DNA from: Agathobacter sp.
GTDB taxonomy: Bacteria; Bacillota; Clostridia; Lachnospirales; Lachnospiraceae
Assembly: GCA_036308285.1 (NCBI GenBank)
Contig: JAXJVZ010000292.1
Span: forward strand, 1-21,071
Direction: 5' to 3'
Length of the DNA: 21,071 nucleotides
This document shows, piece by piece, positions 7,765-9,362 of this stretch. A program made the translations under genes and the position numbers. Every line of letters starts with the position of its first letter. The first letter of the stretch is position 1. The notes under the pieces are model-generated. The model was not told where the DNA came from. It saw only the letters and a list, made by a program, of their open reading frames with translations, and made no database searches.

Positions 7765-7993
7765 GTATAAAGTAGAATCTTGGGCATATGGCACTTGCCA
7801 TTACTTTGAAGATGAATTTGTAAGTGTTGCCATTAACCATTATAACACGTGGCAGAACGCTGAATTTGAAGGTTGGAAGTTTCATGTGATGATTGCCATT
7901 AATGGTGAGCTGAAATATAATGAATTGCTGAATTTAACAGATTGGAAAGCCGCAGAAACTTTTGCCACTAACAAGTTAGGAGAGTTAAGATGA
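7757..7993 (+). CDS. hypothetical protein (78 aa)
   Basis: Its start overlaps the upstream stop (ATGATTAA), suggesting translational coupling. No recognisable family. Confidence 0.45.
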   Translation: MIKYKVESWAYGTCHYFEDEFVSVAINHYNTWQNAEFEGWKFHVMIAINGELKYNELLNLTDWKAAETFATNKLGELR

Positions 7994-8064
7994 AACTGTG
8001 GATTGATGACCTGCGCGACCCGCCTAATCGCCCGGATGAGCAGTATCTGGACAAAAGATTTTAA
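7990..8064 (+). pseudogene. truncated 5' fragment of a cyclic-phosphate processing receiver (CPR) domain gene (MKLWIDDLRDPPNRPDEQYLDKRF*), GC-rich remnant
   Basis: The first 13 aa are near-identical to the N-terminus of the intact CPR gene at 9057 (MIKLWIDDIRLPPH…). Local GC is about 55-60% against about 30% in the surroundings. It ends after 24 codons, immediately upstream of the inserted HEG-like gene. Confidence 0.5.
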
Positions 8065-8121
8065 TTATGTCTCCACTTTTTACATAAAATGTAGAAAAAT
8101 AAAATGTTGGAGGAGATATAA

Positions 8122-9057
8122 ATGGGAAAATTAGTTGATTTAACAGGATAGACTATAAATGGTATTGAAGTACTTGGTCGAGCCGTACATCCTACAGATA
8201 AAAGAAGAGCTTATTGGGAATGTAAATGTAGTTGCGGAAATATTTTCATTACACGTGGAGAGTCTTTAAGAACAGGACATACTAAAACTTGTGGACATTG
8301 TCCTACTAAAAAAGAACTACAAAAAATAGAAACTGAAAAGAAGCGAGATATTACAGGATAGGTCTTTGGTAGATTAAAAGTTCTTTATAAAGATGAAATA
8401 AAGAAAAATAGTTATTGGATTTGTGAATGTGAATGCGGTAACATTGTTTCTCGTAGAAAAGATAGTCTAAAATCCTAGGGAGAAAAGGCTAGTTGTGGAT
8501 GTCGTAAAAGTGAATTGACTTCATAGCAATGGAGTACTCATTTAGAAGGGTAGCGTTTTGGTAAATTAAAAGTTATTTAGAGAGTTCTTCATAATGAATT
8601 ACGTTCTTTATGGGAATGTCAGTGTGATTGTGGAAATGTAGTTTTTTTCCCAACTAGATATTTATTATCAATGAATGTAAAGAGTTGTGGTTGTGAAAGT
8701 CGTTCTTATGGAGAATTAGAAATCCGCAAGCAACTTAAAGAATTATCAATATCTTTTAAAGAACAATATACTTTTTCAGATTGCTTGACTGAAAATAATA
8801 GACCTATCCGATATGATTTTGCTTTATTTGATGAAAGTGAAAATATTATTTGTTTAATCGAATATAATGGTTAGCAACATTATCAAGCAATAGATTATTT
8901 TGGAGGGGAAGAAAAATTTAAATAGCAATAGTTGCGAGATAATATAAAAAGGAATTATTGCTTAAATAAAAATATTCCTCTTATTGAAATTCCTTATACT
9001 CAGTTAACTAATTTAAATATTCAACAAAAATTATAGGATACGGGTGTGTTAAAATAA
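8122..9057 (+). CDS. freestanding homing-endonuclease-like protein: three N-terminal zinc-ribbon repeats (…G(Q)xFGRLKVL…W.C.C.CGN…) plus C-terminal Vsr/DUF559-like domain (RYDFALFDE…LIEYNGQQHY…IPLIEIPY); 10 in-frame TAG codons
   Basis: A GGAGGAG RBS lies 7 nt before the ATG at 8122. The 311-codon frame has 10 TAGs and no TAA or TGA until the TAA at 9055-9057. TAGs fall at repeat positions where the paralog at 6371-7117 has K or Q (LTGQ/LTGK). The ORF track finds only a 67-aa piece (8671-8874). Confidence 0.6.
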
Positions 9058-9362
9058 TGATTAAATTATGGATTGATGATATTCGATTACCGCCTCATGA
9101 AGGTGAATGGATATGGGTAAGAACTGTTAATAGTTGTAAAAATCTTATTGACAGTCTGACCTTTAATACTGAATTGGTATTGAGTATTGACCATGATAGT
9201 TCTGTCTATCACGCAGAGGGCGGCGACTATATTAACATTCTCAACTATCTTGAATATTTGCAGTGGATTAACGTAAAGGTTTATATTCATTCTATGAATG
9301 CAGTTGGTTGTGTTAATATGCGCGCCATTATTGAGCGCAATGGCTGGAAGGAAGTATTTTAA
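9057..9362 (+). CDS. cyclic-phosphate processing receiver (CPR, CheY-like receiver fold) domain protein
   Basis: The start overlaps the upstream stop (TAATG). The sequence MIKLWIDDIRLPPHEGEW…LSIDHDSS…GGDYINIL…VYIHSMNAVGCVNMRAII matches the remembered CPR consensus (WLDDxRxxP … DHDLG … GG.G … IHS.NpvG.eNM). Assigned from memory, without a search. Confidence 0.55.
   Translation: MIKLWIDDIRLPPHEGEWIWVRTVNSCKNLIDSLTFNTELVLSIDHDSSVYHAEGGDYINILNYLEYLQWINVKVYIHSMNAVGCVNMRAIIERNGWKEVF

What the first reader, a model, noticed from the sequence alone, without database searches (positions are those of the whole stretch)
7990..9362. Homing-endonuclease-like gene inserted between a GC-rich truncated CPR gene fragment and the intact CPR gene
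The region 7990-8064 encodes MKLWIDDLRDPPN…. It stops after 24 codons and is about 55-60% GC in an otherwise roughly 30% GC region. The 10-TAG HEG-like gene (8122-9057) follows. The intact, AT-rich CPR-domain gene starts exactly at its stop codon (9057, MIKLWIDDIRLPPH…). The duplicated N-terminus in a foreign base composition looks like a scar of HEG homing with co-conversion of flanking sequence from a GC-richer relative. Alternatively it is a remnant of target-site duplication. It documents active HEG mobility. It also shows that the zinc-ribbon-repeat plus Vsr/DUF559-like architecture behaves as a freestanding homing endonuclease.
Basis: partly seen in the sequence, partly recalled or inferred. 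Interest (0 to 1): 0.55.

Follow-up and report, generated by a model that had tools for sequence, protein, structure and literature searches.

The report
Homing endonuclease scar in phage CPR gene
A selfish nuclease gene, together with its own version of the neighbouring phage gene, has replaced most of the resident version and left that version's first 20 codons as a stub. This is an ordinary kind of event, unusually well documented here by relatives that lack the insertion.

Summary
Bases 7990-8049 are the first 20 codons of a second allele ("B-type") of the phage's cREC_REC/CPR gene. They match intact genes in relatives at 50 of 53 bases and still sit in their native 4-nt overlap with the upstream 78-aa gene.

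At 8050 an AT-rich cassette begins. It has a 5'UTR with its own Shine-Dalgarno sequence and a 311-codon gene with 10 in-frame TAG codons. The protein has three zinc-ribbon repeats and a Vsr-like nuclease domain resembling I-Bth0305I. Its TAA stop overlaps the ATG of a complete, different CPR allele ("A-type", 9057-9362).

Close relatives without the endonuclease exist in two forms: 78-aa gene followed by an intact B/C-type CPR, and A-type CPR alone. Three diverged genome backgrounds share a nearly identical 1.3-kb tract (stub, endonuclease, 5' CPR-A) with flanks 7-10% divergent.

An unrelated phage (L027) has the same layout, with its stub cut at the same aligned codon.

Best reading: intronless homing with allele replacement. 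The GC-rich stub is what remains of the displaced allele, and its GC richness is intrinsic to that allele's 5' end. It is neither a target-site duplication nor evidence of a GC-rich donor genome. Cleavage activity, cut site and direction of transfer are inferred. This is a new variant of a known kind, of moderate interest.

The parts
7391..7462 (+). Promoter/leader element of the operon (TTGATT-17-TGTTATAAT plus leader with AAGGAA). It is one of 7 copies in the window.
7456..7764 (+). 102-aa gene of unknown function. In endonuclease-free L010 it is followed directly by CPR-A.
7757..7993 (+). 78-aa gene of unknown function. In endonuclease-free relatives (L018, L016, L017) it is followed, with a 4-nt ATGA overlap, by an intact CPR gene.
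7990..8049 (+). Stub: the first 20 codons of a displaced B-type CPR allele (55% GC).
   Evidence: 50/53 nt identical to the intact gene in L012-L015 and 27/27 to L018. 17/21 aa identical to P0052. Homology stops at 8049.
8050..8064 (+). Four novel codons (DKRF) and a TAA that close the stub ORF. This is the left end of the endonuclease cassette.
   Evidence: No homology to any CPR allele. Homologous to the 5' flank of the endonuclease gene in L048 and L026.
8050..8121 (+). 5'UTR of the endonuclease cassette (24% GC). It contains the palindromic motif TACATAAAATGTA and the Shine-Dalgarno sequence GGAGGAG (8109-8115).
8122..9057 (+). Free-standing homing-endonuclease-like gene of 311 codons. It has 10 TAG codons read as sense (probably Gln), three zinc-ribbon repeats and a C-terminal Vsr-like PD-(D/E)xK nuclease domain.
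9057..9362 (+). Intact A-type CPR gene (cREC_REC, 101 aa). Its ATG overlaps the endonuclease gene's TAA.
9284..9352 (+). 3' segment conserved at DNA level in all CPR alleles. It is the probable right-hand homology arm for allele replacement.
   Evidence: blastn matches of L018, L019, L022 and L024 all start at 9284.
7967..9277 (+). Tract nearly identical between diverged backgrounds. Window versus L008 shows 2 mismatches in 1311 nt, while flanks are 7-10% divergent.

Best explanation
A free-standing homing endonuclease gene lives immediately upstream of, and translationally coupled to, the A-type allele of the phage's CPR gene. That allele is presumably resistant to cleavage.

Proposed sequence of events:
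1. In a mixed infection the enzyme cut a B-type CPR allele near codon 20.
2. The right side of the break was repaired by homologous recombination with the donor, in or beyond the 70-nt 3' segment shared by all alleles.
3. The left end was joined upstream of the endonuclease gene without homology.
4. The result is: resident 78-aa gene, first 20 codons of the resident allele (closed by a stop after 4 novel codons), the endonuclease cassette, then the complete A-type allele.
5. The arrangement later spread by ordinary homing, using the 78-aa gene plus stub as the left arm. The stub now travels inside the co-conversion tract.

Shown: the anatomy, the allele identities, the presence/absence polymorphism, the identity tract, the nuclease fold, purifying selection, and recurrence in another phage.

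Inferred: the cleavage activity, the cut site near codon 20, the immunity of the A-type allele and the direction of transfer.
For: 1. The stub equals the 5' end of intact B-type alleles, and homology ends exactly at 8049.
2. The stub keeps the native ATGA overlap with the 78-aa gene seen in endonuclease-free L018, L016 and L017.
3. Endonuclease-free near-isogenic genomes exist. L010 is 95-98% identical in its flanks and has the 102-aa gene followed by CPR-A. L020 has a promoter followed by CPR-A. L018, L016 and L012 have intact B/C-type genes.
4. Three diverged backgrounds carry a nearly identical endonuclease gene and CPR-A 5' part.
   - Window versus L008 has 2 mismatches in 7967-9277, against 38 in the 511 nt to the left and more than 30 in the 320 nt to the right.
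   - L009 has 1 mismatch and one 15-nt indel in 926 nt.
5. The cassette's left boundary, defined independently from L048 and L026, coincides with the end of stub homology.
6. In the unrelated phage L027/L028 a 17-codon stub (MKLWIDDVRPSPEGHIW) with its promoter and ribosome-binding site precedes an endonuclease gene (53% identical) fused in frame to a different full CPR. That stub ends in the same alignment column as the window's.
7. The gene looks functional.
   - dN/dS is about 0.14 against orthologues, and TAG aligns with CAA.
   - The AlphaFold model has mean pLDDT 88.5.
   - E198, D232, E247, H253, D273 and K276 are invariant in 38 homologues.
8. There is no intron: no Rfam match to the region.
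Against: - No biochemical evidence exists for cleavage or for the cut site.
- Only two left junctions of this lineage could be read (window/L007 and L008), and they are identical. Repeated independent homing into fresh B-type alleles is therefore not shown.
- A-type CPR with an identical 5' 220 nt also occurs without the endonuclease gene (L010, L020). The A allele may spread, or shuffle at gene boundaries, independently of the endonuclease.
- The locus is generally mosaic and the genome carries 7 repeated promoter elements that could mediate module exchange.
- Other phages with endonuclease-CPR fusions (L049/L050, L131) have no stub. None of 80 IMG/VR CPR loci has one.
- An alternative cut site near 9290 cannot be excluded. 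All endonuclease-plus alleles read CATTCT there and the three endonuclease-free A alleles read CACAGT.
Confidence: 0.6

Rival explanations
1. General mosaic recombination. An illegitimate or microhomology-mediated exchange between two phages with different modules at this locus created the junction at 8049/8050. The endonuclease gene was a passenger and its enzyme played no part.
For: - The locus is highly modular: between the MVP-like gene and CPR there are 0 to 4 different small genes in relatives.
- A-type CPR occurs in three different upstream contexts.
- An 8-nt repeat ATGATTAA flanks the 1.3-kb block that L010 lacks.
- There are seven repeated promoter elements.
Against: - A second, unrelated phage has a stub ending in the same alignment column next to a homologous endonuclease gene.
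- The break lies inside a gene, whereas the other module exchanges seen here fall at gene boundaries.
- Close homologues of this endonuclease sit directly 5' of a CPR gene in four lineages: window, L048, L027, and L049/L131.
Confidence: 0.2
2. Composite mobile unit. The element that moves is the endonuclease gene plus its own complete (or 5') CPR copy. It inserts at a fixed position after codon 17-20 of resident CPR genes. There it takes over the resident promoter, ribosome-binding site and first codons for its own expression, and supplies a replacement CPR so that the host function is kept. The stub is an inherent product of every insertion.
For: - Endonuclease and CPR are fused in one reading frame in three diverged lineages (P0145, P0148, P0162).
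- In L027 the stub's stop codons abut the endonuclease gene's ATG (TGATAATATG) with no separate ribosome-binding site, so the stub ORF can deliver ribosomes.
- The stub ends in the same column in both lineages.
- Both stubs are intact and close to functional alleles even though the endonucleases are only 53% identical. Either the insertions are recent or the stubs are renewed.
Against: - Fusions in L049/L050 and L131 have no stub.
- A-type CPR identical in its 5' part exists without the endonuclease gene (L010, L020).
- In the window the endonuclease gene has its own Shine-Dalgarno sequence 57 nt after the stub's stop.
- Only two lineages show a stub.
Confidence: 0.15
3. Target-site duplication or local tandem duplication of the CPR 5' end, made by the insertion itself.
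For: Two copies of the CPR N-terminal coding sequence flank the inserted gene (repeat D2).
Against: - The copies are 73% identical over 40 nt and then unalignable.
- Each copy is far closer to a different allele found intact elsewhere: 94% to L012 for the stub, and 100% to L010/L020 for the A-type 5' end.
Confidence: 0.02

Closest known systems
[quoted passage not shown]
   Same: - The endonuclease gene sits between or next to conserved genes.
- It is present or absent in close relatives.
- Flanking DNA is co-converted, so the donor's allele of the neighbouring gene replaces the recipient's.
   Different: - Here a stub of the displaced allele is left upstream of the endonuclease gene.
- The endonuclease has a Vsr-like nuclease with three zinc ribbons, and its gene uses TAG as a sense codon.
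- No genetic or biochemical test was done.
EDxHD / Vsr-like homing endonucleases (I-Bth0305I, PDB 3R3P; PMC3239194)
   Same: - The acidic and His residues are conserved.
- According to the paper, family members occur in phages both as intron-encoded and as free-standing genes.
   Different: - The N-terminal DNA-binding part is three Cys-rich zinc-ribbon repeats, not NUMOD/helix-turn-helix motifs.
- There is no sequence-level match to 3R3P.
- Pfam places the domain in DUF2726.
Phage homing endonucleases with repeated zinc-finger DNA-binding domains at boundaries of genetic exchange (ICP1 phages; PMC10448857)
   Same: - Repeated zinc-binding DNA-binding modules are joined to a nuclease domain.
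- The gene lies exactly at a boundary between conserved and exchanged sequence.
   Different: The nuclease (T5orf172/GIY-YIG or HNH there) and the zinc-finger families (CapR, DUF723, DUF4397) are different.
Fungal mitochondrial endonuclease genes flanked by partial duplicates of the host gene (atp6 and cob C-terminal duplications, PMC6279837; Allomyces atp6 and Ophiostoma rps3 cases recalled from memory)
   Same: The endonuclease gene arrives with a piece or copy of the target gene that keeps the gene functional. The displaced resident piece remains as a remnant.
   Different: - There the 3' end is duplicated and the endonuclease gene is downstream or fused in frame.
- Here the 5' end is displaced and a whole allele is supplied.
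- The genetic system differs: phage rather than organelle.
Genes-in-pieces created by endonuclease insertion (Aeromonas phage Aeh1 nrdA split by mobE; cited in PMC2988022)
   Same: An endonuclease gene is inserted inside the coding region of a phage gene.
   Different: There both pieces remain functional subunits. Here the upstream piece is a 20-codon stub and function is supplied by a complete second allele.

Membership tests
Free-standing homing endonuclease gene (intronless homing) | Presence/absence polymorphism of the gene at the same locus in closely related genomes. | tested here: met
   - Endonuclease-plus: window, L007, L008, L009, L011.
- Endonuclease-minus: L010 (flanks 95-98% identical), L018, L016/17, L012-15, L020.
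-.
Free-standing homing endonuclease gene (intronless homing) | The gene is not embedded in an intron or intein. | tested here: met
   - No Rfam match in 7300-9700.
- The gene is a separate ORF with its own Shine-Dalgarno sequence.
- The downstream CPR gene is complete and identical to endonuclease-free copies.
Free-standing homing endonuclease gene (intronless homing) | Co-conversion of flanking sequence: an identity tract around the gene in otherwise diverged genomes. | tested here: met
   Window versus L008 has 2 mismatches in 7967-9277, with 38 mismatches in 7456-7966 and more than 30 in 9278-9600. L009 is similar.
Free-standing homing endonuclease gene (intronless homing) | Site-specific cleavage of the endonuclease-minus allele, and resistance of the endonuclease-plus allele. 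| not testable with these tools
   This needs expressed protein (TAG changed to CAG) and B-type and A-type CPR substrates.
EDxHD / Vsr-like homing endonucleases | Vsr-like catalytic fold. | tested here: met
   [not shown]
EDxHD / Vsr-like homing endonucleases | Composite catalytic motif E-D-x-H-D. | tested here: inconclusive
   E198, D232, E247, H253 and D273 are invariant in 38 homologues. Residue-by-residue equivalence to I-Bth0305I was not established, and there is no sequence-level hit to 3R3P.
EDxHD / Vsr-like homing endonucleases | N-terminal NUMOD/helix-turn-helix DNA-binding region. | tested here: not met
   The N-terminal 190 residues are three Cys-rich beta repeats (W.C.C.CG...SCGC). 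No NUMOD hit in Pfam.
cREC_REC / CPR domain (PF20274), for the stub and the intact gene | Match to the family profile above the curated cut-off. | tested here: met
   - Intact gene: 55.9 bits against a cut-off of 27.
- The stub is too short for the profile. It matches the N-termini of 112-aa members at 17/21 aa and 50/53 nt.
Transposon-type target-site duplication | Two identical or near-identical short direct repeats made from one target. | tested here: not met
   The copies are 73% identical over 40 nt and derive from different alleles.

The most novel reading that the evidence does not exclude
This endonuclease lineage has evolved into a composite selfish cassette that carries, and in some phages is translated as one polypeptide with, a resistant copy of its own target gene.

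- It inserts at a fixed point after codon 17-20 of resident CPR genes.
- It takes over their promoter, ribosome-binding site and first codons.
- It leaves a diagnostic stub.

In the recoded phages, the 10 TAG codons additionally make translation of the endonuclease, and of the CPR gene coupled to it, depend on the phage's TAG suppression.
Probability: 0.3. Interest if true: 0.65.

Novelty: new variant of a known kind. Interest (0 to 1): 0.5.

Why it matters
- **A natural before-and-after record.** Uncultivated phages here provide the empty sites, the displaced allele, the incoming allele and a sharp co-conversion tract for one homing event.
- **A testable target.** The record points to a specific target (the 5' part of B-type CPR genes, near codon 20) for a widespread but uncharacterised endonuclease architecture: three zinc ribbons plus a Vsr-like nuclease, with more than 3000 homologues.
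- **A possible general strategy.** Recurrence in an unrelated phage, and the in-frame endonuclease-CPR fusions, suggest that the endonuclease travels with a replacement copy of the gene it destroys.
- **A link to recoding.** Mobile nuclease genes in this phage group are the heaviest users of the reassigned TAG codon. This bears on how recoding and selfish elements interact.

Tried and rejected
- **GenBank phages.** megablast, blastn and tblastn found no relative of the locus, only distant endonuclease homologues in Staphylococcus and Lactococcus phages.
- **Pattern scans.** Exact-pattern scans of IMG/VR and JGI metagenomes for the endonuclease 5' junction gave 0 hits. IMG/VR had no relative of the 78-aa protein.
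- Contexts were reached through database homologues instead.
- **PDB by sequence.** Searches with the single protein and with the profile found no relevant hit. Only the fold search was informative.
- **Survey of CPR loci.** In 80 IMG/VR CPR loci there was no second stub. An endonuclease homologue lay within 2.5 kb in only 5.
- **Group I intron reading.** Rejected: no Rfam hit, and the downstream gene is complete.
- **Target-site duplication.** Rejected.
- **L010 as a simple deletion between the two ATGATTAA repeats.** Rejected. L010 differs from the window at 4 positions in 7740-7750 just before the junction, against 4 in the preceding 350 nt, and its 102-aa gene ends differently.
- **A GC-rich foreign donor.** Rejected: intact B-type alleles in relatives of similar overall GC have the same GC-rich 5' end.
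- **No internal promoter.** None was detected for the endonuclease gene, which lies inside the operon running from 7394 to the terminator at 10444-10468.
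Full report
**1. What is in the sequence.**

The window is a mosaic, phage-like stretch of 38% GC overall, with blocks ranging from 25% to 51%.

The finding lies in one operon. The operon starts at a promoter-like element at 7394-7422 and ends at a terminator at 10444-10468. Its genes, in order:
- a 102-aa gene (7456-7764);
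- a 78-aa gene (7757-7993);
- a 24-codon ORF (7990-8064, MKLWIDDLRDPPNRPDEQYLDKRF);
- a 57-nt spacer containing GGAGGAG;
- a 311-codon frame (8122-9057) with ten TAG codons and a TAA stop;
- a 101-codon gene (9057-9362) whose ATG shares one base with that TAA;
- several small genes.

The 101-aa protein is a cREC_REC ("CPR") domain, PF20274, at E = 7e-15. The one adjustment concerns GC content: it is 48% for the whole short ORF and 55% for its first 60 nt.

**2. The short ORF is a true gene remnant.**

A search of 5.8 billion proteins with the intact CPR protein returned 107 homologues. A subgroup of about 112 aa begins M-K-T-V-LWIDDLRDPP(N/Y)RPDEQYL-IARSVNEAK. This matches 17 of the first 21 residues of the short ORF.

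At DNA level, window 7997-8049 is 94.3% identical (50 of 53 nt) to the intact gene in loci L012-L015. The first 27 nt are identical to the intact gene in L018. Homology stops exactly after ...CAGTATCTG at 8049. The next 15 nt (GACAAAAGATTTTAA) match no CPR gene.

I call the allele of the stub B-type and the intact gene A-type. They are about 52% identical as proteins. Their 5' ends are 73% identical over 40 nt.

**3. Relatives with and without the inserted gene.**

No GenBank phage is related. Exact-protein look-ups in public assemblies gave the needed comparisons.

*Same arrangement as the window:*
- L007 and L011 are virtually identical to the window.
- L008 and L009 have diverged backgrounds.

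*Without the endonuclease gene:*
- L010 has flanks 95-98% identical to the window. Its 102-aa gene is followed directly by an A-type CPR gene that is identical to the window's over 9054-9289.
- L020 has the MVP-like gene, then the promoter element, then A-type CPR.
- L018 has a 78-aa gene (96% identical) followed by an intact 111-aa CPR with the same ATGA overlap as in the window.
- L016 and L017 have the 102-aa gene, the 78-aa gene and an intact 124-aa CPR.
- L012-L015 have other small genes followed by an intact 112-aa B-type CPR.

So the stub stands where a complete CPR gene stands in relatives. From codon 21 onward, that gene has been replaced by the cassette and the A-type allele.

**4. 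Boundaries of the cassette.**

Orthologues of the endonuclease gene occur in other contexts: L048 (78% amino-acid identity) and L026 (66%). Both share about 70 nt of 5'UTR with the window, reaching back to about 8050. This is the same point at which stub homology ends.

On the right, homology with L026 ends at the stop codon. In L048 the gene is again followed, with an ATGA overlap, by an A-like CPR gene. The cassette proper is therefore 8050-9056.

Upstream of the cassette, L048 has a short ORF, MKNHKTALWVNKIYIIGQKL. It may be a decayed stub. This is suggestive only.

**5. Signature of recent spread.**

Window versus L008:
- 38 mismatches in 7456-7966 (7.4%);
- 2 mismatches in 7967-9277 (0.15%);
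- more than 30 mismatches in 9278-9600.

Elsewhere the two genomes are 73-89% identical.

L009 has a downstream gene only 75% identical in protein. Yet it differs from the window in 8376-9301 by one base and one 15-nt in-frame indel.

The right end of these tracts coincides with a roughly 70-nt 3' segment (9284-9352) that is conserved at DNA level in all CPR alleles. That segment is a natural crossover site.

The left end in L008 lies 23 nt upstream of the stub. In the latest transfers, therefore, the stub moved together with the endonuclease gene.

**6. The inserted gene.**

*Reading of TAG.* With TAG read as a sense codon the frame is complete.
- TAG aligns with CAA in orthologues at eight columns.
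- dN/dS against orthologues is about 0.14.
- All 30 gene calls in the window end in TAA or TGA.
- The 22 in-frame TAGs are confined to five AT-rich genes. There are none in the other 3735 codons.
- A simple composition estimate (mine) gives roughly 1e-8 for the chance of no TAA or TGA in 311 codons of 30% GC DNA.

*Family and structure.*
- Pfam gives DUF2726, just above its cut-off.
- PHROGs gives families labelled HNH endonuclease, homing endonuclease and intron-encoded nuclease.
- An AlphaFold model built on 38 homologues has mean pLDDT 88.5. It shows three beta-rich Cys repeats and a C-terminal alpha/beta domain.
- E198, D232, E247, H253, D273 and K276 are invariant.
- The I-Bth0305I paper defines the EDxHD family. 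It notes free-standing members and the phage Hef enzymes (PMC3239194).
- Sequence searches do not reach 3R3P, and the N-terminal DNA-binding part differs. I therefore call the enzyme Vsr-like in fold, not a proven EDxHD member.

**7. Recurrence elsewhere.**

Among 3080 homologues of the endonuclease, three diverged proteins of about 340 aa (P0145, P0148, P0162) are in-frame fusions of the endonuclease to a full CPR domain.

In L027/L028, a 133-kb phage contig that uses the standard code, the fusion gene is preceded by:
- a terminator;
- a promoter-like site;
- a ribosome-binding site;
- a 17-codon stub, MKLWIDDVRPSPEGHIW, followed by TGA TAA and at once by the endonuclease gene's ATG.

That stub is again from a different allele than the full CPR domain downstream. 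In a protein alignment it ends in the same column as the homologous part of the window's stub.

The other two fusion lineages have no stub. None was found in 80 IMG/VR CPR loci.

**8. Interpretation.**

The best-supported account is intronless homing with allele replacement.
- The endonuclease gene resides just 5' of a resistant A-type allele.
- A sensitive B-type allele was cut near codon 20.
- The right side was repaired by homology. The left end was joined upstream of the endonuclease gene without homology, leaving the stub.
- The product has since spread by homologous recombination.

Two observations speak for a break position set by the enzyme rather than by accident. The stubs end in the same alignment column in two lineages whose endonucleases are only 53% identical. 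And both stubs are well preserved. That also fits repeated activity.

Cleavage, cut site and immunity remain inferred. Four observations keep rivals alive:
- the general modularity of the locus;
- the A-type allele occurring without the endonuclease gene (L010, L020);
- the lack of diverse left junctions;
- a perfect but small-sample association of CATTCT (endonuclease-plus) versus CACAGT (endonuclease-minus) at 9287-9292, which could mark another cut site or only a recombination boundary.

**9. Comparison with what is known, and novelty.**

- Free-standing endonucleases, co-conversion and marker exclusion are textbook for T-even phages (PMC2988022).
- Nucleases with repeated zinc fingers at exchange boundaries are described for ICP1 phages (PMC10448857).
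- Partial duplicates of host genes next to endonuclease genes are known in fungal mitochondria (PMC6279837).

New here:
- the combination in a phage of a displaced 5' stub with supply of a whole replacement allele;
- its recurrence, together with in-frame fusions of the endonuclease to its neighbouring, presumed target, gene;
- the architecture of three zinc ribbons plus a Vsr-like nuclease acting as the mobile gene;
- the heavy use of the reassigned TAG codon in that gene.

I rate it a new variant of a known kind, with interest about 0.5.

Noticed in passing
whole window; TAG-containing genes at 1886-2755, 2742-3758, 6371-7117 (-), 8122-9057, 17020-17889: TAG appears to be a sense codon, probably Gln. 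All 30 gene calls end in TAA (27) or TGA (3). The 22 in-frame TAGs all lie in five AT-rich accessory or mobile genes, with none in the other 3735 codons. No tRNA gene lies in the window.
   Followed up: partly
window 63-114, 3768-3836, 7391-7462, 10473-10527, 12799-12867, 16040-16113, 17896-17965: There are seven copies of a conserved element of about 60 nt, promoter plus leader (TTGATTTTTAT..AAAAATATGnTATAAT..CAAAGTTAAGAAAGGAAT). Each heads a gene block. They are possible sites of module exchange, and short contigs of relatives begin and end in it.
   Followed up: partly
window 6371-7117 (- strand): A second, paralogous endonuclease gene has two zinc ribbons plus the same nuclease domain, about 37% identity and 4 TAG codons. 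It lies between the terminator of the MVP-like gene and the operon promoter. It is present in L019 and absent from the same place in L008, L012 and L016.
   Followed up: partly
window 17020-17889: A third mobile-type nuclease gene has NUMOD4 (twice), HNH_3 (twice) and NUMOD1 domains and 4 TAG codons. It lies directly after a calcineurin-like phosphoesterase gene.
   Followed up: no
window 834-3758: An AT-rich island holds a 349-aa protein without family match, a 289-aa protein (no Pfam match; methyltransferase-like by eye only, GNPPFG motif; 3 TAG) and a GmrSD_N/DUF262-type protein (1 TAG). It may be a restriction-modification or defence-type insert.
   Followed up: no
window 3833-6346: An 837-aa protein matches the major vault protein shoulder and repeat domains (PF11978 at 1.2e-17, PF17795). 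It is conserved at 82-91% in all related phage contigs.
   Followed up: no
L027 4001-5029, L049 3001-4023, L131 2164-3186: In other phages the homologous endonuclease is fused in frame to a complete CPR domain, giving single polypeptides of 340-342 aa under the standard code.
   Followed up: partly
window 8079-8096 and 7305-7334; L048 about 150-175: A palindromic motif (TTACATAAAATGTA; a perfect 13-nt hairpin at 7305-7334) lies in the 5' regions of both endonuclease paralogues and of the L048 orthologue. It may be a shared regulatory element.
   Followed up: no
window 9287-9292: All endonuclease-plus A-type alleles read CAT TCT (His-Ser). The three endonuclease-free A-type alleles (L010, L020, L022) read CAC AGT, with the same amino acids. 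This could be a recombination boundary or an immunity polymorphism.
   Followed up: partly
L009, corresponding to window 8683-8698: One endonuclease-plus relative has a 15-nt in-frame deletion in the third zinc-ribbon region of the endonuclease gene.
   Followed up: no
window 10596-16035: This stretch holds a cluster of genes related to RNA repair and NAD metabolism. They are RlaP-like (weak match), NAMPT, a gene read as macro-domain by eye (14270-14785; not scanned), NAD synthase and NADAR. This fits the RNA-repair context proposed for CPR domains (PMC7824862 found but not read).
   Followed up: no
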